Below are positions 94 through 17,828 of a DNA stretch of 19,805 nt, in pieces. A program made the translations under genes and the position numbers. How positions within the stretch are numbered: the first letter of the stretch is position 1; the number at the start of each line of letters is the position of its first letter. The stretch is from IMG/VR virus record IMGVR_UViG_2731957841_000001, positions 1 through 19,805 of that record; one strand, written 5' to 3'. This DNA comes from a virus. Its lineage: Duplodnaviria > Heunggongvirae > Uroviricota > Caudoviricetes. The notes below the pieces were generated by a model, which saw nothing but the letters and a program-made list of their open reading frames with translations, ran no database searches and had not been told where the DNA came from.

Positions 94-116
94 CGCTGCC
101 GCCACTTTGTCGCCAT
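94..116. repeat. Putative attL core: 23-bp direct repeat CGCTGCCGCCACTTTGTCGCCAT, matching 19717..19739 at 22/23
   Basis: Repeat read directly from the sequence; copies sit just outside the int-side cargo and immediately after the ogr stop, where P2-family att sites are expected. Confidence 0.55.
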
Positions 117-871
117 TAAGAAGGTGATGACTGGTCTTTGATAGCTAGAAGTCCCCATGAGAAAACTTCTTTGGCATCGCTTATTAAACCATCCTCTATA
201 AATTGCTGTGTCTCAGCCCATTCCATATCACTGACATAGTGTACTAGCGTATTTGTCTGGATTGGGATTTCTTCAAATTGCTCGATTCGACGTTTGAAAC
301 TACATTCAGGATCTGAACAACGGCATGTGCGTCTTATATCATCTACCCTACAGAGTAAAAGGGAGTAGGGGGTCTCAAGTGGTGCACAGTAGTCAACCCG
401 ATAGTTATGAGATCGTGTTGGCTGGATGTTATGAAGGGGATCTAAAAGCACAATATTAAAAATTTGGTTCTCATCCCAAAAGCCAACAACTCTACCAAGG
501 GCAGTAGATATCTGAAATTGTAGTAAGGGGTATTCTTCGTCATTTTCAAGGTAATCAGTGTCAATCCATGTCAACTGGCTACGTTGTACGGGTATATTTC
601 TTTGTTCCCAGTTTATTGAATGATAGCGCCATGCCTCTCTATCGGCCCCACTGGTAATAAAGCCTTTGACATCTTTTTGAGAAAGCTCAGATAATTTTCC
701 AATTAGTGAAACAAACCAGCCTGAATTGGTACGGTCTAACCCAAAATTATCAATTTGACGCCAATAACGAAAAGAAAATGCCCACTTTTTTTCGGGTGCA
801 GAGGGCGTTTTTGGGGTCTGTGCCGCTGTTGGTTGATTTGCCCCTAATGAAGGGCGGTAGGCGTTCACCAT
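116..871 (-). CDS. Hypothetical 251-aa protein, candidate toxin/effector partner of the upstream Panacea-domain protein
   Basis: Long ORF whose ATG (869..871) lies 5 nt after the stop of the upstream gene on the same strand; no strong SD, so translational coupling is plausible. Low-complexity P/A/T/Q-rich N-terminus and a C-x8-C-x-C-x4-C cluster. No family recognised. Confidence 0.55.
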   Translation of the reverse strand: MVNAYRPSLGANQPTAAQTPKTPSAPEKKWAFSFRYWRQIDNFGLDRTNSGWFVSLIGKLSELSQKDVKGFITSGADREAWRYHSINWEQRNIPVQRSQLTWIDTDYLENDEEYPLLQFQISTALGRVVGFWDENQIFNIVLLDPLHNIQPTRSHNYRVDYCAPLETPYSLLLCRVDDIRRTCRCSDPECSFKRRIEQFEEIPIQTNTLVHYVSDMEWAETQQFIEDGLISDAKEVFSWGLLAIKDQSSPS

Positions 872-876
872 GGCTA

Positions 877-1344
877 TTAATTTAATCGGCTACGATAAAA
901 GTCTCTTGTTATGTTGCGATCGATGACTACTTCACAACGTGCTGAAGGTCTGTAACCCTCACGAGCCTTAATCCATGGTTCTTCTTTATGAGTCATATCT
1001 TCAAGTTGTGCGCCAGAAAAAGCACCGTAGACTTCAAGAACGCCATCAATATGAGCTGCGGTTGCGGCTGGAATGGATGAAAGATCAAACCCAGGAGTGC
1101 GATCTGCAATCGTTATGTCCGAATACAGTGATTTTGTAGAAGAGAACCGGTTATAAATCGCACGGCTTACTGGGCCATGAATCCAAGCTTGAAACTCCTC
1201 ATCCACTAACTTTTTATCGAAAAAAGCTAGATACCAAGCATCTGCGTAATAAGCTAATTTTTGCAGCTTCAAATTAGACATAGTTTCACCTGAAGCTAAG
1301 ATTTTTGTGATGATGTAATCACATAATTGGTTAATATTTATCAT
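877..1344 (-). CDS. Panacea/DUF4065-like protein (SocA/PanA antitoxin-type)
   Basis: 155 aa; N-terminal region SNLKLQKLAYYADAWYLAFF...FQAWIHGPV matches, from memory, the conserved LKLQKLLYY..W core of DUF4065 proteins. GAGGGA RBS about 7 nt upstream of the ATG. Confidence 0.65.
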   Translation of the reverse strand: MININQLCDYIITKILASGETMSNLKLQKLAYYADAWYLAFFDKKLVDEEFQAWIHGPVSRAIYNRFSSTKSLYSDITIADRTPGFDLSSIPAATAAHIDGVLEVYGAFSGAQLEDMTHKEEPWIKAREGYRPSARCEVVIDRNITRDFYRSRLN

Positions 1345-2717: not shown

Positions 2718-2909
2718 TTATCGTGAGTTTTTAGTACAGATTTTTTTGGATTTACTAATAGTTCCATCATTGCAAACGAATTTGCCATCTGAGGTACAGT
2801 GAGAAACACCTCCCTTTTTCCCTGAGCAGGGATAATTTCTAGCATAGGTAGCTAGTGGGTTTAATAACAAAGAACATGACAAAACCACAAAAAATACCTT
2901 ACCAAGCAT
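2718..2909 (-). CDS. Small secreted Cys-rich protein (63 aa), moron-like ORF between cI and int
   Basis: Strong GGAGG RBS 5-6 nt upstream of the ATG; N-terminus [23 protein letters not shown] looks like a Sec signal peptide; basic mature part with 4 Cys. AT-rich relative to flanking genes. Confidence 0.5.
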
Positions 2910-2924
2910 AATTTCCTCCCGGTA

Positions 2925-3494
2925 CTATTTAACATACTTGACTGTTAAACTTATAATTTTACCAATTATTTCAATGTCTTCTATCTTGCATTCGAAGGCT
3001 CTGTTTCCACCCTCGACGAAGATTCTTCCACCGGGTAAACGAGTAATGTCACGGATCGTTATTTCGCCATCAATACTTATTACCCATTTACCATCACGTA
3101 TATCATCAAATTCCTTATCACAAATAAATTCAGAATTATTATCTGTGATTACAAAAAGATTCTTGAATGCCGACGGTAGAAATTCTCTATCGAAAATATA
3201 AAAACCGTCTTCACACAAGGCCCCATCAGATAATACATATTTAGCAACTTCCATAGTATTTGTATTACCTGAAGTTTGCTTTGAACCATGCCCGGTTGTG
3301 AGCCAATTAAGCGAGGTGCCTGTTTCAAGGGCGCACTGGATTACCCATTCTGCTGGGAATGAGTCACGCATGTAGCGTGTGGCGAGTGTACTTTTAGAGA
3401 TTCCTAAATGATCGCACAACGCCTGTCGAGTCTTGAATCCATAAGCTTCTACCATGCGCTCTATAGCGCCTCGTCCGCCTTTCTCCAAATTCAT
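2925..3494 (-). CDS. cI: CI-type immunity repressor (coliphage 186 CI-like)
   Basis: Motifs VEAYGF...LGISKSTLATRYMR...CALETGTSLNWLTTGHG match my recollection of 186 CI; sits upstream of int on the same strand and faces apl/cII. Start taken at ATG 3494 with a GGAGTG RBS (the ORF track begins at a GTG two codons earlier). Confidence 0.75.
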   Translation of the reverse strand: MNLEKGGRGAIERMVEAYGFKTRQALCDHLGISKSTLATRYMRDSFPAEWVIQCALETGTSLNWLTTGHGSKQTSGNTNTMEVAKYVLSDGALCEDGFYIFDREFLPSAFKNLFVITDNNSEFICDKEFDDIRDGKWVISIDGEITIRDITRLPGGRIFVEGGNRAFECKIEDIEIIGKIISLTVKYVK

Positions 3495-3518
3495 GGTCAC
3501 TCCAAGTGAACTTTTATC

Positions 3519-6528: not shown

Positions 6529-8939
6529 GTCATGCCGATATGAGCGACTCTAGCGGCTTTAACGAGGCCGCTGCAGCATTTTCATGGAACGGCCCGAAAA
6601 AGGCCATAAACCCTTATCTGGACCCGGCGGAAGTTGCGCCGGTTTCTGCGCTTTCAAACCTGATCACTCTGTATGCTGCCGATAACGAGCAGGAACAGCT
6701 GCGCCGCGAGGAATTGAGTGAACAGGTCTGGGAGCGTTATTTCTTTAATGAATCCCGTGATCCTGTCCAGCGCGAAATGGAGCAGGATAAGCTCATTAGT
6801 CGGGCAAAGCTGGCGCATGAGCAGCAGCGTTTTAACCCGGACATGGTCATTCTGGCGGACGTCAGCGCCCAGCCCACCCACATCAGCAAGCCGCTGATGC
6901 AACGTATCGAATACTTCAGCAGCCTGGGCAGGCCAAAGGCTTATTCCCGCTATTTGCGTGAGACGATTAAGCCATGTCTGGAGCGACTGGATTGTGTACG
7001 CGACAGTCAGCTATCTACTTCTTTCCGTTTTATGGCAAGCCATCAAGGGCTGGAGGGCCTGCTGATCCTGCCTGAAATGAGTCAGGATCAGGTGAAACGC
7101 CTGTCCACCCTGGTAGCTGCGCATATGAGCATGTGTCTTGAGGCCGCTTGTGGTGATTTGTATACCAACGATGACGTAAAGCCAGAAGAAATCCGCAAGA
7201 CATGGGAAAAGGTGGCAGCGGAAACCCTGCGTCTGGATGTTATCCCGCCTGCGTTTGAGAAACTTCGTCGGAAAAGAAACCGCCGCAAACCTGTGCCCTA
7301 TGAACTCATACCGGGTTCGCTGGCACGTATGCTTTGCGCCGACTGGTGGTATCGAAAATTGTGGAAGATGCGTTGCGAATGGCGGGAAGAGCAGTTGCGT
7401 GCTGTCTGTCTGGTCAGCAAAAAAGCATCTCCCTATGTCAGCTATGAAGCCGTGATGCATAAACGTGAGCAGCGCCGCAAGTCGCTGGAGTTTTTCCGTT
7501 CTCATGAACTGGTGAACGAAGACGGAGACACGCTGGATATGGAAGATGTGGTAAACGCCAGCAGCAGCAACCCGGCACATCGCCGCAATGAGATGATGGC
7601 CTGCGTTAAAGGTCTGGAGCTTATCGCGGAAATGCGCGGTGACTGCGCCGTTTTCTACACCATCACATGTCCGTCACGTTTCCATTCCACGCTCAATAAC
7701 GGCAGGCCCAACCCGACCTGGACAAATGCGACGGTAAGACAAAGCAGCGATTATCTGGTCGGCATGTTTGCTGCATTTCGTAAGGCGATGCACAAAACCG
7801 GGTTGCGCTGGTATGGCGTACGGGTGGCTGAGCCGCACCATGACGGTACTGTGCACTGGCATCTCATGTGTTTCATGCGCAAAAAAGACCGCCGCGCCAT
7901 TACTGCATTGTTGCGTAAGTTTGCCATCCGTGAAGACCGCGAGGAGCTGGGCAATAACACGGGCCCACGCTTTAAGTCTGAGCTGATAAACCCACGCAAA
8001 GGAACGCCGACAAGCTACATCGCAAAATACATCAGTAAGAACATTGACGGGCGTGGTCTGGCTGGCGAGATCAGCAAGGAAACGGGTAAATCCCTGCGTG
8101 ATAACGCCGAATACGTTAATGCCTGGGCGTCTCTGCATCGTGTTCAGCAGTTCCGCTTCTTTGGTATTCCGGGGCGCCAGGCTTACCGTGAACTGCGATT
8201 GCTGGCTGGTCAGGCGGCAAGACAACAGGGTGACAAAAAAGCAGGTGCGCCGGTACTGGATGATCCGCGTCTTGATGCCATCCTGGCTGCTGCTGATGCT
8301 GGTTGTTTTGCCACCTACATCATGAAGCAGGGCGGCGTACTGGTTCCCCGCAAATATCACCTTATCAGAACAGCTTATGAAATTAACGAAGAGCCGACTG
8401 CCTATGGCGATCACGGTATTCGTATTTATGGCATCTGGTCACCCATTTCAGAGGGCAAGATCTGCACTCATGCAGTGAAGTGGAAAATGGTTCGTAAGGC
8501 CGTTGACGTTCAGGAGGCGGTAGCCGACCAGGGCGCTTGCGCCCCTTGGACTCGTGGCAATAACTGTCCCCTTGCTGAAAATTTGTACCAACAAGGGAAA
8601 GACAAATCAGCTGATGGGGGCTCCAGAACGGACATTACCCGCATGGATGACAAGGAATTGCACGATTACCTGCACAGTATGAGCAAAAAAGATCGCCGGG
8701 AGCTGGCAGCAAGGTTGCGCTTGGTGAAACCGAAACGGCGTAAAGACTACAAACAGCGAATTACAGATCATCAGCATCAGCAGCTCGTCTATGAACTGAA
8801 GTCCAGAGGATTTGATGGCAGCGAGAAAGAAGTCGATTTGCTCCTTCGCGGTGGCAGTATTCCGTCAGGAGCAGGCTTGCGTATCTTCTATCGGAACCAG
8901 CGTTTGCGGGAAGATGATAAGTGGCGGAACCTGTATTAA
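6525..8939 (+). CDS. A: Rolling-circle replication initiator (P2 gene A-like HUH endonuclease)
   Basis: 804 aa; HUH-type motif ([10 protein letters not shown]) and paired active-site tyrosines ([10 protein letters not shown]); size and position match P2/186 gene A. Confidence 0.85.
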
Positions 8940-9030
8940 TTACGCGGGTTAACAATTCGTGCTCTTAATAATACCAGGCATATCAGGCTGATGAACGTAA
9001 AAAAACGTTTTACATCAGTAAGATTATTAT

Positions 9031-9050
9031 ATACTGTAAATATAAACAGT
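9031..9050 (+). promoter_or_regulatory. LexA (SOS) box TACTGTAAATATAAACAGTG overlapping a promoter (-35 TTTACA 9008..9013, -10 TATACT 9029..9034)
   Basis: Perfect CTGT-N8-ACAG with an AT-rich centre, directly upstream of the small ORF and DinI-like operon. Confidence 0.6.
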
Positions 9051-9092
9051 GGTTATGTATACAGCATTTCTTGTGGTGTCATAGGAGGAAAG

Positions 9093-9281
9093 ATGCAGGA
9101 CTATTTTTTGGAGTCTTTGAAGCTCCAGCGCATTGATTTTTTTCTTAAGCTTGTAGCGGCTAGTGAGTGTAGTGATGAAGAGAAGGGGCTGGCTTTGCAG
9201 TGGGTTTCTGAACTAACAGATGAACTCATGGCAAAAATCAGAACCCACGAATACAACCGCTCAATGGATGTCATCAGTTGA
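9093..9281 (+). CDS. Small hypothetical protein (62 aa) in the position of a 186 Tum-type antirepressor
   Basis: AGGAGG RBS 4-5 nt upstream of ATG 9093. The longer track ORF starting at 8991 is rejected because the promoter and LexA box lie inside it. Confidence 0.45.
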   Translation: MQDYFLESLKLQRIDFFLKLVAASECSDEEKGLALQWVSELTDELMAKIRTHEYNRSMDVIS

Positions 9282-9291
9282 GGTGACTTTT

Positions 9292-9525
9292 ATGCGCATT
9301 GAAATAATGATCGATAAAGAGCAGAAGATTAGCCAGTCTATCCTGGACGCCCTTGAATCCGAGCTTTACCGCAATCTGCGCCCCCTGTATCCCAAAACGG
9401 TAATTCGTATCCGCAAAGGTAGCTCTAACGGTGTGGAACTGACCGGACTGCAACTGGACGAAGAAAGAAAACAAGTGATGAAAATTATGCAGAAGGTGTG
9501 GGAAGACGACAGCTGGCTGCATTAA
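9292..9525 (+). CDS. DinI-family protein
   Basis: MRIEIMIDKEQ...ILDALESELYRNL...VWEDDSWL aligns along its length with E. coli DinI as I recall it (MRIEVTIAK...IDALAGELSRRI...TWESADDWF). GAGGTGA RBS. Confidence 0.8.
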   Translation: MRIEIMIDKEQKISQSILDALESELYRNLRPLYPKTVIRIRKGSSNGVELTGLQLDEERKQVMKIMQKVWEDDSWLH

Positions 9526-9527
9526 GA

Positions 9528-9570
9528 AACGTTGCTGGCGTCTGAACTTGCTTCTGACGTCAGCAACGTT
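9528..9570. terminator. Long hairpin (15-bp stem AACGTTGCTGGCGTC / GACGTCAGCAACGTT, 13-nt loop) between convergent genes
   Basis: Inverted repeat read from the sequence, 2 nt after the DinI-like stop; a U-rich tract follows only on the minus-strand transcript. Confidence 0.45.
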
Positions 9571-9791
9571 GAACAACTAGTTTAGTGGGGCATTAGTCAT
9601 GGGGTAAAATACAGTAACCATTATTTTCACTTCCGCTCAGATTTAACCGAACGTTAGTTTTGCTACGTATGATGGGCTGCAAATTACCTTTTGGGATTTG
9701 TGATAGATACGAAAATCCTATTAGATGCTTGTTAGACCGGAAGCGCCACTTCGAACGAAAAGTAATGGCCACTTATGCCGGTTTAAAAGCC

Positions 9792-10322
9792 TTAACCTTG
9801 TATAGTTATTTGAATATTTTCTTCATTGACACCAAAGTATAGGGCTAGCCCTGCTTTTGCCTCCTGAAGTGTTAACGGCTTAACTACATTTTCTTCTTCT
9901 TCTTCGTACTCATCACCCGCTTGATCGACAATCGAATTAGTCGGGGTTAATTTTGGAAGAGCTTTAAATTCCAACTTGTCAGCCTCAATGCCAATGTCTT
10001 TGAGGTTGCGATAAGAAACGGGATTCCGATTGCCATCCCATTGTCCTGGGATGTCAATTTCAGCATAAGAATTGATGTTTATGATCCAGCGTTTAGGGTT
10101 TTCTGGAGCCCTGCTTACTCCCGAGATTCGACCGATCATAAAAGCATGATGATGTTTTGCTTCTTGTGATCCCCAGTCCTTTCTCGAATTTTGTACACAA
10201 ACTAAATATTCGTGCTTAGCTGCATGGCTGGCGTCAAGTCTCCATGCTTGGCTTCCCCCTGTGTTCAAAATCTCTGTTAAACCACGAGCAGTAAGTACAG
10301 TAATACAGTTGGTAGTAGCCAT
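9792..10322 (-). CDS. Hypothetical 176-aa protein, opposite-strand orphan in the cargo interval
   Basis: Long AT-rich ORF with a His-rich patch (KHHHAF), a WDGNRN motif and an acidic linker (DEYEEEEEN). No family recognised. Confidence 0.55.
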   Translation of the reverse strand: MATTNCITVLTARGLTEILNTGGSQAWRLDASHAAKHEYLVCVQNSRKDWGSQEAKHHHAFMIGRISGVSRAPENPKRWIININSYAEIDIPGQWDGNRNPVSYRNLKDIGIEADKLEFKALPKLTPTNSIVDQAGDEYEEEEENVVKPLTLQEAKAGLALYFGVNEENIQITIQG

Positions 10323-10792: not shown

Positions 10793-10858
10793 AATAATGC
10801 AAATTATTGAGTCCCATTAGTTCAAAACTTAGGGATATCTTATGTGAAAGGAGGTTAT

Positions 10859-12544
10859 ATGTTAGATAAATTGATTTTTAATTCAGGAAGTAATCCAACA
10901 TCTAAATCTTCATTATCGGTTGACTTGACTCCATTGACAATTTTTGTGGGGCCGAATAATAGTGGTAAATCTAGAGCTTTAATCGATATAGAAAATCAAC
11001 TGACAACCCGAAATGCAGCGCAGGGAGAAGTAATAAAACAGATATTAATCAAACCACTTTCTGAGGATGAAGCAAAAAAGGAAATTGAATCTTTACAAGT
11101 TGAGCCAAACCAGGATGAAAAGCATGCGGGGCATGTTGTTTTATCTAGGCTAAACCTCCGTGGTGAAGGAATATCTAGGATTCTAGTGTATTTGGATGGA
11201 ATGTTAAGAGAATTCCAGCAACCCAATGAATTCAATCGGGAGCATCTATATCAATATTACTCGTTGCTGACTCTAAGGTTGGATGGTAGAAGTCGACTTT
11301 CCTTAACTTCAAGTCAAGGTTCATCCGATTTACAAGGAGAACCTACGAATAACCTTTCATTTCTTTTTAAAAATAATAAAGCAAGGATGGAGCTAAGAGA
11401 TATCGTTTTTGATGCTTTCGGGAAGTATCTTGTTATTGATCCAACAAATATAGGTTATCTTAGAATTCGTCTTTCTGAGCGCGCTCCTGAGACTGAACAA
11501 GAAGAAAGAGGTTGGGATGAAAAGTCAGTGCTTTTTCATTCAAAAGCGTCATTGATTACAGAGGCTAGCGATGGTGTTAATGCTTTTGTTGGGATGATGA
11601 TTTCGCTGATAGTTGGCTCACCAAAGGTGACTCTAATTGATGAGCCGGAAGCTTTTTTACATCCATCCTTATGCTCAAAGTTAGGAAAGGAAATATCTAG
11701 GATTAGTGCTCATAGTAATAAAAATGTGTTTATTTCAACGCATAGCGCTAATTTTTTAATGGGTTGTGTTCAAGGTAAAGTGCCATTGAATATAGTTAGG
11801 CTTACTTTTGATGGTAAATCTGGTACGTCTAGATTACTAACAAAGGAACAATTGACGCCGCTCATGAGAAATCCGTTATTAAGATCTATTGGTGTGCTAA
11901 ACGCATTGTTTTATAATTACGTTGTCGTTACTGAAGCGGATGCAGATAGGGCATTTTATCAAGAGATTAATGAGCGCTTATTGGCTGCTGGAGATCCTCG
12001 GGGTATTGAGGGATGCCTGTTTTTGAATGCTCAAAACAAACAAACTGTTTGGGATATAGTAAAACCCCTTCGTGAGCTAGGTATTCCCTGCGTTGGAGTG
12101 GTAGATATCGATATATTGAAGGAGGGAGGAGTTGTATGGAAAAAACCAATGCTTGGAGCTTTTTTTCCAGAAATGAAGCATGAAACTTTAGGTTTGGAAA
12201 GACAAAAGCTTTTTCAAGCCTTCAAAAATACGAATAAAAATATGAAGACAGATGGGGGCCTCTCCTTGTTATCGGGTTCAGATAAAACCGCCTGCTCTGA
12301 GTTTTTTAAATCCCTTTCAGATTATGGGGTTTTTGTCGTTCCAACGGGCGAGATCGAGTCTTGGTTGCAAAATCTTGAAATAGGTCGAGGAAAGAATACT
12401 TGGTTAACAAGTATTTTCGAGAAGATGGGGGATGATCCTAATGATGAATCATATGTGAAGCCATCTGAAGGTGATGTTTGGGATTTTATTGGGAATATAA
12501 AGCACTGGTTGGTTAACCCTGAAAGGAAGGGTATTCCCGAGTGA
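10859..12544 (+). CDS. OLD-family nuclease: N-terminal ABC-type ATPase plus C-terminal Toprim domain (P2 Old-like, class 1 arrangement)
   Basis: Start at ATG 10859 (AGGAGG RBS). Walker A (FVGPNNSGKS), signature-like EASDGVNAF, Walker B (VTLIDEPEAFLHP), H-loop (ISTHSA); C-terminal Toprim-like acidic motifs (VVVTEADADRAF, VGVVDIDIL). No adjacent helicase gene. Confidence 0.7.
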   Translation: MLDKLIFNSGSNPTSKSSLSVDLTPLTIFVGPNNSGKSRALIDIENQLTTRNAAQGEVIKQILIKPLSEDEAKKEIESLQVEPNQDEKHAGHVVLSRLNLRGEGISRILVYLDGMLREFQQPNEFNREHLYQYYSLLTLRLDGRSRLSLTSSQGSSDLQGEPTNNLSFLFKNNKARMELRDIVFDAFGKYLVIDPTNIGYLRIRLSERAPETEQEERGWDEKSVLFHSKASLITEASDGVNAFVGMMISLIVGSPKVTLIDEPEAFLHPSLCSKLGKEISRISAHSNKNVFISTHSANFLMGCVQGKVPLNIVRLTFDGKSGTSRLLTKEQLTPLMRNPLLRSIGVLNALFYNYVVVTEADADRAFYQEINERLLAAGDPRGIEGCLFLNAQNKQTVWDIVKPLRELGIPCVGVVDIDILKEGGVVWKKPMLGAFFPEMKHETLGLERQKLFQAFKNTNKNMKTDGGLSLLSGSDKTACSEFFKSLSDYGVFVVPTGEIESWLQNLEIGRGKNTWLTSIFEKMGDDPNDESYVKPSEGDVWDFIGNIKHWLVNPERKGIPE

Positions 12545-15424: not shown

Positions 15425-15943
15425 GTGGTTGAAGGACTTTCAGTTGCGGGGCCAACTGCAGCTTATGAATTTCATGCCCGAAGCGCCGACGGTCGGGTGG
15501 CGGATGCCAGTGCAACCAGCCCGGCACCTGCAGAGGTGGTGCTGACTGTCCTTAGCCGCGAAGGCGATGGAACTGCAGAAAAAGACCTGCTGGACGTGGT
15601 GGAAAAAGCTCTGAACAGTGAGAACGTCCGCCCGGTGGCTGACCGTCTTACGGTTCGCAGCGCAGAAATCATCCCGTATCGCGTGGAAGCCACCATTTTT
15701 CTCTATCCGGGACCGGAAGCAGAGCCGGTAATGGCAGCGGCAAAAGCCAGTCTGCAGAAGTACATTGCCAGCCAGACGAGGCTTGGTCGGGATATTCGCC
15801 GTAGCGCCATCTTTGCTGCTCTGCATGTTGAGGGTGTTCAACGTGTGGAACTGGCTTCTCCGCTGGCGGATGTGGTCCTGAACAAAACACAGGCGGCATC
15901 ATGTACGCAGTGGAGCGTAACCAACGGAGGAACGGATGAATAG
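15425..15943 (+). pseudogene. J: Baseplate protein J, C-terminal fragment only
   Basis: Translation resembles the C-terminal part of P2-type gpJ (RPVADRLTVRSAEIIPYRVEATIFLYPG...IFAALHVEGVQRVEL), and its stop overlaps the next start as at the P2 J/I junction. It begins about 50 bp after the P start codon, so O-N-M-L-lysis-R-S-V-W and the J N-terminus are absent. Confidence 0.6.
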
Positions 15944-17828
15944 TCTGCTGCCACCGGGTTCAACTTCACTGGAGCGCCGACTGGCGCAAACCTGTAGCGG
16001 GATTTCTGATTTGCAGGTGCCGCTGCGTGACTTGTGGAATCCGGCTATCCAGCGTGTGCTGGAGAAGGTGAACGCACTGCCGCAGGACAAGCGTCTGTCT
16101 GCCATGACCATGTTGTTTGGTAAAGAGTTTGGCGATGACGCGGCGAAACTGGCAAACAACCTGCCGGAACTACAGCGCCAGCTAAAACTGACAGCGGGCA
16201 ATGATGCGCTCGGTTCCATGCAGAAAGAATCCGACATCAACAAGGACTCACTTTCTGCTCAGTGGTTGCTGGTTAAAACCGGAGCGCAGAATACCTTCAG
16301 CAGCCTGGGCGAAACGCTGCGCCAGCCGCTGATGGATATTCTGTACACGGTGAAAAGCGTTACGGGAGCGTTGCGTCGCTGGGTGGAAGCTAACCCGGAA
16401 CTGACGGGCACACTGATGAAAGTAGCCGCTATTGTGGCTGCGGTTACCGTCGGCCTCGGCACCTTGGCTGTGGCGCTGGCTGCAGTGCTGGGGCCGCTGG
16501 CAGTCATCCGTCTGGGATTCTCTGTGCTGGGCATCAAAACGTTACCTTCCGTTACGGCAGCAGTAACACGAACCAGCAGCGCGTTGTCCTGGCTGGCTGG
16601 CGCACCACTGGCACTGCTGCGACACGGGCTTGCTTTATCGGGTAACGCAGCGGGTTTACTTACTGCGCCGTTGTCGTCTTTGCGCCGTACGGCATCACTG
16701 ACGGGAAATGTCCTGAAAACTGTTGCAGGTGCGCCGGTTGCACTTTTGCGGTCTGGATTATCCGGTTTACGTGCGGTTGCTGTGATGTTTATGAATCCTC
16801 TGGCGGTACTGCGCGGTGGACTGACCGCCGCAGGTACGGTGCAGCGAGTACTGGCATCTGGTCCACTGGCGATGCTGCGCGTTGCCCTGTATGCCATATC
16901 TGGTCTGTTAGGTGCTCTGCTCAGTCCGATAGGTCTAGTGGTTACTGCACTGGCAGGCGTGGCGCTGGTTGTCTGGAAATACTGGCAACCCATCACCGCA
17001 TTTCTCGGTGGCGTGGTGGAGGGATTCAAAGCGGCGGCAGGTCCCGTCAGTGCCGCATTCGAACCACTTAAGCCTGTGTTCCAGTGGATTGGCGACAAAG
17101 TGCAGGCGCTGTGGGGCTGGTTTACTGACCTGCTGACGCCCGTTAAGTCGACCTCTGCCGAACTGCAGAGTGCAGCGGCAATGGGGCGACGATTCGGGGA
17201 GGCTCTGGCGGAAGGGCTGAATATGGTCATGCATCCGCTGGACTCCCTGAAATCCGGCGTTTCCTGGTTGCTGGAGAAACTCGGCATTGTCAGTAAAGAG
17301 GCCGCAAAGGCAAAACTACCGGAAAGCGTGACGCGTCAGCAACCTGCGACGGTGAATGCAGACGGCAAAGTGATGATGCCATCGGGTGGTTTTCCATCAT
17401 GGGGATATGGCTTTGCGGGGATGTATGACAGCGGCGGGTATATCCCGCGCGGGCAGTTTGGCATCGTCGGTGAAAACGGGCCGGAAATTGTTAACGGCCC
17501 GGCAAATGTGACCAGCCGGAGAAATACAGCTGCACTGGCTGCCGTTGTTGCCGGAATGATGGGCGTTGCTGCCGCGCCAGCAGAGCTTCCACCGTTGCAC
17601 CCTTTGGCACTTCCCGCGAAAGGTGGAGAAGCAATTGTGAGTCGCGCAGCCACTGTGCCGCTCGTTCAACGGATTGAGGCACCGACGCAGATCATCATTC
17701 AGACGCAGCCAGGACAAAGTGCGCAGGATATTGCGCGGGAGGTGGCACGCCAGCTTGATGAACGTGAACGCAGGCTGAAGGCAAAAGCCAGGAGTAACTA
17801 CAGCGATCAGGGGGGATACGACGCATGA
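15936..17828 (+). CDS. T: Tail tape measure protein, truncated; the first ~37 codons look like the N-terminus of tail protein I (in-frame deletion fusion)
   Basis: N-terminus LLPPGSTSLERRLA...VPLRDLWNP resembles the gpI start, then switches to tape-measure-like sequence with degenerate PLAxLRxGL repeats and the C-terminal MYDSGGYIPRGQFGIVGENGPEIV motif. Stop overlaps the U start (ATGA). Confidence 0.65.
   Translation: MNSLLPPGSTSLERRLAQTCSGISDLQVPLRDLWNPAIQRVLEKVNALPQDKRLSAMTMLFGKEFGDDAAKLANNLPELQRQLKLTAGNDALGSMQKESDINKDSLSAQWLLVKTGAQNTFSSLGETLRQPLMDILYTVKSVTGALRRWVEANPELTGTLMKVAAIVAAVTVGLGTLAVALAAVLGPLAVIRLGFSVLGIKTLPSVTAAVTRTSSALSWLAGAPLALLRHGLALSGNAAGLLTAPLSSLRRTASLTGNVLKTVAGAPVALLRSGLSGLRAVAVMFMNPLAVLRGGLTAAGTVQRVLASGPLAMLRVALYAISGLLGALLSPIGLVVTALAGVALVVWKYWQPITAFLGGVVEGFKAAAGPVSAAFEPLKPVFQWIGDKVQALWGWFTDLLTPVKSTSAELQSAAAMGRRFGEALAEGLNMVMHPLDSLKSGVSWLLEKLGIVSKEAAKAKLPESVTRQQPATVNADGKVMMPSGGFPSWGYGFAGMYDSGGYIPRGQFGIVGENGPEIVNGPANVTSRRNTAALAAVVAGMMGVAAAPAELPPLHPLALPAKGGEAIVSRAATVPLVQRIEAPTQIIIQTQPGQSAQDIAREVARQLDERERRLKAKARSNYSDQGGYDA

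What the first reader, a model, noticed from the sequence alone, without database searches (positions are those of the whole stretch)
9008..9525. SOS-controlled operon: perfect LexA box upstream of a 62-aa ORF and a DinI homologue
TACTGTAAATATAAACAGTG is a perfect CTGT-N8-ACAG LexA box overlapping the -10 of a promoter. It drives a small 62-aa ORF followed by a clear DinI-like gene. This parallels the LexA-repressed tum operon of 186, so the 62-aa protein may be an antirepressor, unusually short if so, and the DinI-like protein may modulate RecA.
Basis: partly seen in the sequence, partly recalled or inferred. Interest (0 to 1): 0.5.

Follow-up and report, generated by a model that had tools for sequence, protein, structure and literature searches.

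The report
Split tum SOS operon of a prophage
This is the DNA-damage switch of a Fels-2/186-like prophage, a LexA-repressed promoter driving a small antirepressor gene (tumA) and a DinI-like gene (tumB); the arrangement is already described for phages PSP3 and Fels-2 and occurs in about a fifth of complete E. coli genomes.

Summary
A LexA box (TACTGTAAATATAAACAGTG, 9032-9051) lies in a 186-p95-like promoter. It precedes a 62-aa ORF (9093-9281) and a 77-aa DinI-family gene (9292-9525), directly after the gpA replication gene of a 186-like prophage.

It is the known "split tum" arrangement.
- ORF62 is 98% identical to Fels-2 STM2728, and the DinI-like protein is 99% identical to Fels-2 STM2726.1.
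- A profile of the ORF62 family hits the N-terminal half of 186 Tum at E 1.4e-9.
- PSP3 annotates the same pair as tumA (60 aa, "UV induction of prophage") and tumB.
- A published microarray shows the Fels-2 operon induced up to 15-fold by a mutagen.
- Sixty-two residues is a normal size for this kind of antirepressor.

Two refinements came out of the work.
- The operator is a double, overlapping LexA box (9034-9064), nearly identical to colicin Y and pesticin operators.
- TumA is 71-100% conserved across prophages whose CI repressors share only 30-60% identity overall. The CI N-terminal domain tracks the TumA type; the C-terminal domain does not.

Verdict: already known, low interest. Antirepressor activity on this CI is inferred, not shown.

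The parts
9009..9014 (+). -35 hexamer TTTACA of the p95-like promoter
   Evidence: Lies 17 nt upstream of TACTGT. The same layout (TTtACA/TTCACA, 17-18 nt, TACTGT) is seen in most of the related phages compared, and it matches the annotated -35/-10 of 186 p95. Assigned by homology; the generic scan did not call it.
9032..9037 (+). -10 hexamer TACTGT, inside the LexA box
   Evidence: Equivalent to the annotated p95 -10 of 186, which is the first six bases of its LexA site (alignment).
9032..9051 (+). LexA box 1 (20-mer TACTGTAAATATAAACAGTG; core 9034-9049)
   Evidence: 17 of 20 positions match the consensus. It is the only such site in the window and appears in 0 of 200 shuffles. Its position is conserved in 14 of 15 phage sequences compared and in 25-31 of 33 genomic loci.
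9049..9064 (+). LexA box 2, degenerate (GTGGTTATGTATACAG), sharing one base with box 1: a colicin-type double operator
   Evidence: An element of this form sits exactly 15 nt after box 1 in about 27 of 43 related loci. The 31-bp unit is nearly identical to the sequence just upstream of the colicin Y and pesticin genes. [quoted passage not shown]
9083..9088 (+). Shine-Dalgarno AGGAGG of ORF62
   Evidence: Read directly. It lies 4 nt before the ATG at 9093 and is conserved in relatives.
9093..9281 (+). tumA-like gene, 62 aa: presumed CI antirepressor
   Evidence: 98% identical to Fels-2 STM2728. phrog_698 E 3.6e-38. The family HMM hits 186 Tum residues ~6-47 at E 1.4e-9. Differences from relatives are concentrated at third codon positions, 19-22 of 29-34. 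AlphaFold predicts a two-helix hairpin, pLDDT 87.
9280..9285 (+). Shine-Dalgarno GAGGTG of the DinI-like gene, overlapping the ORF62 stop codon
   Evidence: Read directly. The 10-nt gap suggests translational coupling (inference).
9292..9525 (+). tumB-like gene, 77 aa: DinI-family protein
   Evidence: PF06183 E 1.3e-22. 41% identical to 186 Tum residues 71-145. 77% identical to PSP3 TumB and 99% to Fels-2 STM2726.1. E. coli DinI 1GHH/7YWA E 3.6e-6.
9528..9570 (+). Strong hairpin after the operon: probable terminator, at the position of 186 t95a
   Evidence: RNA fold -29.4 kcal/mol, z -4.0, 0 of 200 shuffles as stable. There is no T-run, so it is not a canonical intrinsic terminator. The next gene (9792-10322) is on the opposite strand.
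2925..3500 (-). CI immunity repressor, 186 type: the presumed target of TumA
   Evidence: PF07022 E 2.8e-33 plus PF16452 E 2.7e-27. S24 peptidase is below threshold (16 bits against 23). RefSeq names it 'phage repressor protein CI'.

Best explanation
The region is the SOS-induction operon (tumA-tumB, a 'split tum') of a Fels-2/186-like temperate prophage of the family Peduoviridae.

In undamaged cells, LexA occupies a double operator at 9034-9064. This covers the -10 and the start region of a p95-type promoter and keeps the operon silent.

DNA damage activates RecA, LexA cleaves itself, and the operon is transcribed.
- The 62-aa TumA, predicted to be a two-helix hairpin, binds the prophage CI repressor (2925-3500) and prevents it from binding its operators. 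This derepresses the early lytic promoter. The process is reversible sequestration, not cleavage, as shown for 186 Tum.
- The 77-aa DinI-like TumB is made as a separate polypeptide. It probably binds RecA filaments and tunes the strength or duration of the SOS signal.

What is shown and what is inferred.
- Shown here: the sequence features, their conservation, homology of both proteins to the two halves of 186 Tum, and purifying selection on ORF62.
- Shown in the literature for near-identical or homologous systems: DNA-damage induction of the Fels-2 operon; antirepression by 186 Tum; antirepressor activity of PSP3 TumA (second-hand).
- Inferred: LexA binding to this site, TumA binding to this particular CI, and the role of TumB.
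For: Context.
- The window carries int, a 186-type CI, cII, a Dam methylase and gpA upstream, and portal and terminase genes downstream.
- It is 99.97-100% identical to a prophage between rcdA and ybjL in E. coli 1297KP.
- The operon sits directly after gpA, as p95-tum does in 186 and tumA-tumB does in PSP3.

Operator.
- The 20-mer match appears in 0 of 200 shuffles.
- It is conserved upstream of tumA-like ORFs in 14 of 15 phage sequences compared and in 25-31 of 33 genomic loci, although the flanks are unrelated.
- A second box at +15, as in colicin operators, is also conserved (PMC2994835).

TumA.
- 98% identical to Fels-2 STM2728.
- An HMM built only from ORF62 relatives hits 186 Tum at E 1.4e-9 and a Yersinia phage 'tum protein' at 2e-10, in a database of 2,574 ORFs.
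- 186 Tum residues 1-70 hit phrog_698 at E 5.9e-6, and ORF62 hits phrog_1993 (the PSP3 TumA family) at E 0.002.
- Differences fall mainly at third codon positions.
- It occurs alone under a LexA box, with no DinI gene, in ESSI-2, ev015, Yersinia phages and 13 of 33 genomic loci. It is therefore the core module.

TumB..

Literature.
- 186 Tum is a LexA-controlled CI antirepressor (PMC7708051; PMC3121763).
- Split tum in Fels-2 and PSP3, with the upstream half acting as antirepressor.
- The Fels-2 operon STM2726-2727-2728 is induced 5.5- to 14.8-fold by the mutagen MX and is listed with the LexA regulon (PMC2225428).

The CI N-terminal domain tracks the TumA type, even across a swap of the replication module.
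Against: - No experiment exists on this exact sequence.
- The PSP3 TumA activity is a personal communication quoted second-hand. The primary paper, Bunny et al. 2002, could not be read here.
- Pairwise BLASTP finds no similarity between ORF62 and 186 Tum or PSP3 TumA. The direct profile hit to PSP3 TumA is not significant (E 6.8). The link therefore runs through profiles and intermediate sequences.
- The identical TumA occurs with CI proteins only 37-55% identical to the window's CI and with unrelated switch regions. It is not certain that this CI is sensitive to it.
- The -10 is weak, and the generic promoter scan called nothing.
- As given, the window lacks the capsid, lysis and most tail genes. 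Induction of this copy could not yield phage.
Confidence: 0.85

Rival explanations
1. ORF62 is not an antirepressor. It is an SOS-induced accessory factor, for example a partner or modulator of the DinI-like protein or of RecA/LexA, and prophage induction depends on something else.
For: No direct test exists for the ORF62 family. Its PHROG and RefSeq labels are 'unknown function' and 'hypothetical protein'. The same ORF62 sequence accompanies very different CI proteins, which is unexpected for an immunity-specific antirepressor.
Against: ORF62 is homologous to the Tum half that is absent from the truncated, merely modulating Tum forms of 186. ORF62-type genes stand alone under a LexA box, without any DinI gene, in many prophages, so they do not depend on DinI. 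The CI N-terminal domain type follows the TumA type even where gpA is of another type. The 186-type CI has no significant autocleavage domain, so an antirepressor is needed.
Confidence: 0.08
2. CI of this prophage is inactivated directly by RecA-stimulated self-cleavage, as in lambda, and the operon only fine-tunes the SOS response.
For: A faint Peptidase_S24 hit lies in the CI C-terminal domain (E 0.008, 16.3 bits).
Against: The hit is below the Pfam threshold of 23.3 bits. The domain is assigned to PF16452, the 186-type CI C-terminal domain, at E 2.7e-27. 186 induction works through Tum and not through cleavage.
Confidence: 0.04
3. The two ORFs are the decaying halves of a once-fused tum gene broken by a stop codon, with no function of their own.
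For: 186 has the two parts fused in one 146-aa protein. The literature speaks of tum being 'split by a stop codon'.
Against: Each ORF has its own Shine-Dalgarno sequence. ORF62 evolves under purifying selection. Nearly all of the 66 representative clusters are short ORFs of about 50-75 aa, and none is a Tum-length protein with the match at its N-terminus. The operon is present in 1,083 of 5,426 complete E. coli genomes. 186 itself also makes the DinI part separately from an internal start.
Confidence: 0.02

Closest known systems
Fels-2 (Salmonella Typhimurium LT2) STM2728 / STM2726.1 (STM2727) operon
   Same: Proteins are 98% and 99% identical. The promoter and operator are virtually identical, including both LexA boxes. 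The operon has the same position after gpA. It is induced by a DNA-damaging mutagen.
   Different: The Fels-2 CI is only 38-39% identical overall to the window's CI (N-terminal domain 70%, C-terminal domain 26%), and the switch region differs. Fels-2 has a further gene (STM2726) downstream in the same orientation. The window instead has a convergent 176-aa ORF and an OLD-family nuclease.
PSP3 tumA-tumB
   Same: Same architecture: a LexA box, then a 60-aa TumA ('UV induction of prophage'), then a separate DinI-like TumB 3 nt downstream, all after gpA. TumB is 77% identical.
   Different: TumA belongs to another sequence family (phrog_1993) and is related to ORF62 only at profile level. PSP3 has a single LexA box and a much longer CI (286 aa).
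Coliphage 186 p95-tum
   Same: LexA-repressed promoter with the -10 inside the box, directly after gene A. Both protein parts are homologous. The mechanism (Tum sequesters CI) is established.
   Different: In 186 the two parts are fused into one 146-aa protein, and the DinI-like part is also made from internal starts. There is a single LexA box, and orf97 follows.
Gifsy-1/2/3 LexA-controlled dinI-gfoA/gftA operons
   Same: A LexA-repressed prophage operon encoding a small antirepressor together with a DinI homologue. Antirepressors can act on repressors of other prophages.
   Different: The gene order is reversed (dinI first). These are lambdoid phages with an unrelated repressor family. No antirepressor homology was tested or is claimed.
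Colicin / pesticin SOS operators
   Same: The 31-bp double overlapping LexA operator is almost base-for-base the same as the sequence upstream of colicin Y and pesticin genes.
   Different: It drives a phage antirepressor rather than a bacteriocin. The surrounding promoter and genes are unrelated.

Membership tests
Tum / TumA antirepressor (N-terminal Tum domain of 186-like phages) | Sequence homology to the N-terminal half of 186 Tum | tested here: met
   The ORF62-family HMM hits 186 Tum residues ~6-47 at E 1.4e-9. Reciprocal PHROG hits support this. Pairwise BLASTP is negative.
Tum / TumA antirepressor (N-terminal Tum domain of 186-like phages) | Gene lies directly downstream of the gpA replication gene, at the end of the early region | tested here: met
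   The gpA stop is at 8939 and ORF62 starts at 9093. The position is the same in 186, PSP3 and Fels-2.
Tum / TumA antirepressor (N-terminal Tum domain of 186-like phages) | LexA operator within its promoter | tested here: met
Tum / TumA antirepressor (N-terminal Tum domain of 186-like phages) | Cognate repressor is a 186-type, non-cleavable CI | tested here: met
   PF07022 + PF16452; S24 below threshold. Non-cleavability is inferred from the family.
Tum / TumA antirepressor (N-terminal Tum domain of 186-like phages) | Transcription induced by DNA damage | not testable with these tools
   Not testable on this sequence. Published for the near-identical Fels-2 operon (PMC2225428).
Tum / TumA antirepressor (N-terminal Tum domain of 186-like phages) | Binds CI and blocks its operator binding | not testable with these tools
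   Established for 186 Tum and reported second-hand for PSP3 TumA. Here there is only indirect support, from co-variation of the CI N-terminal domain with TumA type.
DinI family (PF06183) | Pfam DinI domain above the gathering score | tested here: met
   80.4 bits against a cut-off of 24.2, covering profile positions 1-63 of 63.
DinI family (PF06183) | Equivalog of chromosomal E. coli DinI (NCBIfam NF007893) | tested here: not met
   42 bits against a cut-off of 111. It is a phage DinI-like paralogue, not the host DinI.
DinI family (PF06183) | Acidic C-terminal helix and RecA-filament binding | tested here: inconclusive
   The C-terminal segment EERKQVMKIMQKVWEDDSW aligns with the DinI C-terminal helix of 1GHH. 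RecA binding cannot be tested here.
E. coli-type LexA (SOS) box | CTGT-N8-ACAG palindrome close to the 20-mer consensus | tested here: met
   17 of 20 positions match; 0 of 200 shuffles give such a site.
E. coli-type LexA (SOS) box | LexA protein binds the site | not testable with these tools
   Needs EMSA, footprinting or ChIP.
Colicin-type double overlapping SOS operator | Two LexA boxes sharing one base, 15 nt apart | tested here: met
   Box 1 is 9034-9049 and box 2 is 9049-9064. The unit aligns with the colicin Y and pesticin operators. Occupancy by two LexA dimers is not tested.

The most novel reading that the evidence does not exclude
One nearly invariant TumA serves many heteroimmune CI repressors by recognising the conserved second half of the CI N-terminal domain. 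SOS-induced TumA from one Fels-2-like prophage, even a defective one, could then trans-induce other resident 186/P2-like prophages, as seen for Gifsy phages. In addition, the colicin-type double LexA operator, which 186 and PSP3 lack, would set a higher damage threshold for this lineage.
Probability: 0.35. Interest if true: 0.45.

Novelty: already known. Interest (0 to 1): 0.2.

Why it matters
The finding itself adds little. It re-identifies the SOS induction module of Fels-2/PSP3-type prophages.

Its practical value is for annotation. The antirepressor is still labelled 'hypothetical protein' in RefSeq and 'unknown function' in PHROGs, and it has no Pfam or NCBIfam model. Yet it is present in about 20% of complete E. 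coli genomes, and it decides whether these prophages are induced by DNA-damaging antibiotics.

The two refinements are cheap to test. They concern the colicin-type double LexA operator, and a conserved TumA paired with diverse CI proteins that share only the N-terminal domain. Both bear on the induction threshold and on cross-induction between co-resident prophages.

Tried and rejected
- Pairwise BLASTP of ORF62 against 186 Tum and PSP3 TumA gave no alignment. Homology needed profiles.
- The generic sigma-70 scan called no promoter in 8800-9900. The promoter is assigned by alignment to 186 p95.
- ORF62 has no match in Pfam, NCBIfam or PDB sequences.
- A Foldseek search of the AlphaFold model against the PDB gave only generic helical hairpins, best E 0.39. 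No functional inference was drawn from it.
- Bunny et al. 2002 could not be retrieved by PubMed or PMC id.
- Literature searches for TumA/TumB and for the CI domain bound by Tum returned only noise.
The single protein was used instead.
- The longer 96-aa reading of ORF62 from ATG 8991, which some annotations call, was rejected. It would start upstream of the promoter and operator, and it lacks the conserved Shine-Dalgarno sequence.
- Rfam and tRNA scans of the window found nothing.
- A fused CI-TumA chain for AlphaFold was considered and not run. The tool reports no interface measures and accepts only window sequences.

Full report
**1. What is in the sequence.**

- TACTGTAAATATAAACAGTG lies at 9032-9051, with the CTGT-N8-ACAG core at 9034-9049.
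- A 62-codon ORF follows (ATG 9093, TGA 9279-9281), preceded by AGGAGG at 9083-9088.
- Ten nucleotides later comes a 77-codon ORF (ATG 9292, stop 9523-9525). Its GAGGTG ribosome-binding site overlaps the first ORF's stop codon.

The bare 16-mer pattern is not rare enough to be significant on its own: 1 match against 0.26 expected, and 45 of 200 shuffles have one. A match to the 20-mer LexA consensus with 3 mismatches or fewer occurs once, and in none of 200 shuffles.

The second ORF is a clear DinI-family protein: PF06183 at 80 bits against a cut-off of 24, and E. coli DinI 1GHH/7YWA at E 3.6e-6. It falls far below the NCBIfam equivalog cut-off for host DinI, 42 bits against 111, so it is a phage paralogue.

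**2. Context.**

The window is a 186-like (Peduoviridae) prophage.
- Upstream genes: integrase; a 186-type CI (PF07022 + PF16452, 2925-3500, minus strand); a Cox/Apl-like gene; cII; a DUF5347 gene; DUF2732; a Dam methylase; and the gpA replication endonuclease, which ends at 8939.
- The operon sits directly after gpA. This is exactly where 186 has the annotated p95 promoter, LexA site and tum, and where PSP3 has tumA and tumB.
- The window is 99.97-100% identical to a prophage between rcdA and ybjL in E. coli 1297KP. There RefSeq calls the two genes 'hypothetical protein' and 'DinI-like family protein'.

**3. Identity of the two proteins.**

The DinI-like protein is 41% identical to residues 71-145 of 186 Tum, 77% to PSP3 TumB and 99% to Fels-2 STM2726.1.

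ORF62 is 98% identical to Fels-2 STM2728. Pairwise BLASTP sees nothing between ORF62, PSP3 TumA and the N-terminal 70 residues of 186 Tum. Profiles do detect the relationship.
- An exhaustive HMMER search of 1.84 billion representatives found 66 clusters. Nearly all are short ORFs of about 50-75 aa, and none is a Tum-length fusion with the match at its N-terminus.
- An HMM built from 32 of these, with no Tum sequence included, hit 186 Tum residues ~6-47 at E 1.4e-9. It hit a Yersinia phage 'tum protein' at 2e-10. Both searches used a database of 2,574 ORFs.
- Independent PHROG profiles agree:

| Query | phrog_698 | phrog_8554 | phrog_1993 |
|---|---|---|---|
| ORF62 | 3.6e-38 | 2.4e-8 | 2e-3 |
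| 186 Tum residues 1-70 | 5.9e-6 | 3.4e-12 | 1.5e-23 |
| PSP3 TumA | no hit | no hit | 2.7e-32 |

- The shared core is ...E..(L/I)(Q/E)R(I/V).(L/M/F)...(L/M)....C...(D/E)(K/R)..A(L/I).W..E(L/I).

ORF62 is a real gene. Against relatives that differ at 29-34 nucleotides, 19-22 of the differences are at third codon positions. AlphaFold with the family alignment predicts a two-helix hairpin (helices 2-23 and 28-61, pLDDT 87). It has no informative structural neighbours.

**4. The operator and promoter.**

Upstream regions of tumA-like ORFs from 14 phage loci were compared with the window's own, 15 sequences in all. An exact CTGT-N8-ACAG box appears in 14 of the 15; the exception has ACAT.
- TTtACA or TTCACA lies 17-18 nt before TACTGT in most of them, although the spacers and flanks are unrelated.
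- This is the annotated -35/-10/LexA layout of 186 p95.
- In 33 further loci from different Enterobacterales species, the box is exact in 25 and has one mismatch or none in 31.

The operator is in fact double. GTGGTTATGTATACAG (9049-9064) shares one base with box 1, and an element of this form recurs at exactly +15 in about 27 of 43 loci.

The 41-nt segment 9028-9068 matches small Col-type plasmids immediately upstream of the colicin Y and pesticin genes. The operators align almost base for base:
- window: TACTGTAAATATAAACAGTGGTTATGTATACAGCATTT
- colicin Y: TACTGTACATAAAACCAGTGGTTATGTATACAGTATTT

[quoted passage not shown] 186 and PSP3 have only one box.

**5. Mechanism.**

For 186, it is established that the LexA-repressed p95 promoter expresses Tum after UV. 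Tum then inhibits or sequesters CI and derepresses pR (PMC7708051; PMC3121763).

PMC3121763 states that Tum is a fusion of an antirepressor with a DinI-like half. It also states that Fels-2 and PSP3 have tum split in two. In PSP3 the upstream gene carries the antirepressor activity; this is a personal communication cited via Bunny et al. 2002, which I could not read.

The Fels-2 operon STM2726-STM2727-STM2728 is induced 5.5-, 11- and 15-fold by increasing doses of the mutagen MX, and is listed with the LexA regulon (PMC2225428). Its promoter is virtually identical to the window's.

The window's CI lacks a significant S24 peptidase domain, so an antirepressor route is expected.

I therefore conclude, by homology and with about 85% confidence, the following chain:
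- LexA holds the operon off.
- DNA damage releases it.
- TumA (ORF62) neutralises CI.
- The free DinI-like TumB modulates RecA filaments.

186 also makes its DinI-like part separately from an internal GTG start, annotated as modulating SOS induction. The split form is thus functionally close to the fused one.

TumA-type genes occur alone under a LexA box, without any DinI gene, in ESSI-2, ev015, Yersinia phages and 13 of 33 genomic loci. This marks TumA as the core of the module and DinI as an accessory.

A strong hairpin at 9528-9570 (-29.4 kcal/mol, z -4.0, no T-run) probably ends the operon, at the place of 186 t95a.

**6. A caveat that is also the most interesting lead.**

TumA is 100% identical in phages whose CI is only 40-55% identical to the window's CI. 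Among TumA62 carriers there are at least six CI types below 62% identity, with unrelated cI-apl switch regions.

Split by domain, CI identity to the window's CI is as follows:

| Group | CI N-terminal domain (residues 8-73) | CI C-terminal domain |
|---|---|---|
| TumA62 carriers | 56-94% (one outlier at 35%) | 24-43% (one near-identical prophage, L017, at 91%) |
| Phages with other Tum types | 41-59% | 25-36% |

Six loci carry a different gpA type (32-37% identity) yet a TumA62-type gene (72-85%). They keep an N-terminal domain at 62-67% identity.

This suggests that TumA recognises the conserved part of the CI N-terminal domain. It also suggests that TumA could act across immunity types. The sample is small and phylogenetically non-independent (Spearman 0.46, p 0.004, uncorrected). 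Sensitivity of the window's own CI is not shown.

**7. Comparison and novelty.**

The locus is a member of the described split-tum (tumA-tumB) module of Fels-2/PSP3-type phages. It is present in 1,083 of 5,426 complete E. coli genomes. [quoted passage not shown]

Novelty: already known. The small additions are the colicin-type double operator, the TumA/CI N-terminal domain pattern, and the observation that databases still leave the antirepressor unnamed.

Interest: 0.2.

Noticed in passing
window 15429-15431 and 16045-16047 (junctions): Relative to the otherwise 99.97-100% identical, intact 34.5-kb prophage of E. coli 1297KP, the window is three joined pieces: L016 1501-16931, 24209-24827 and 32265-36025. 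It lacks about 7.3 kb (the gpO scaffold gene through the N-terminal part of gpJ) and about 7.4 kb (the rest of gpI through the N-terminal part of the tape measure gene). What remains is a gpJ fragment (15425-15943) and a gpI/tape-measure fusion ORF (15936-17828). As given, this prophage cannot make virions. Each junction shares 3 bases between the adjoining pieces.
   Followed up: partly
window 9034-9064: The LexA operator is a double, overlapping box that is almost identical to the operators of the colicin Y and pesticin genes on small Col-type plasmids. 186 and PSP3 have a single box.
   Followed up: yes
window 9093-9281 vs 2925-3500; loci L002-L049: TumA is 71-100% conserved across prophages whose CI proteins share only 30-60% identity (one near-identical prophage, L017, excepted). 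CI N-terminal domain identity follows the TumA type, even where gpA is of another type. CI C-terminal domain identity does not.
   Followed up: partly
window 9792-10322 (-) and 10844-12544 (+): The variable cargo slot between tumB and the portal gene holds a 176-aa ORF with no family match and an OLD-family ATPase/TOPRIM nuclease (PADLOC Old E 1.3e-20; RefSeq 'ATP-dependent nuclease'). Related phages carry other cargo in the same slot, such as TIR-domain and SEFIR-domain genes.
   Followed up: partly
window 116-871 (-) and 877-1344 (-): A Panacea-domain (SocA-like antitoxin) ORF and an adjacent 251-aa ORF without family matches lie between the host gene rcdA and the integrase. They may form a toxin-antitoxin cargo pair at the prophage end.
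   Followed up: no
window 2718-2909 (-): A small 63-aa ORF lies between int and cI. RefSeq annotates it as a 'YdcA family protein'; it has no Pfam or PADLOC hit.
   Followed up: no
L015 7250-7310; L036, L038, L041, L043, L044: Some relatives carry a one-base change in the LexA core (ACAT or CCAG in place of ACAG, or CTGC in place of CTGT). The CCAG variant is the form found in the first box of colicin Y, so not all of these changes need weaken LexA binding.
   Followed up: no
databases: The ORF62 family (phrog_698), the PSP3 TumA family (phrog_1993) and the Yersinia 'tum' family (phrog_8554) are all labelled 'unknown function'. phrog_189 labels full-length Tum simply as DinI. RefSeq calls ORF62 'hypothetical protein'.
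   Followed up: yes
L008 (phage 500465-1) 4483-5013: This record's tumA has a local run of altered residues (ERGWLCSGV), and its DinI gene is frame-disturbed. The record also has an IS element inside gpA. It is probably a decayed copy or contains sequencing errors.
   Followed up: no
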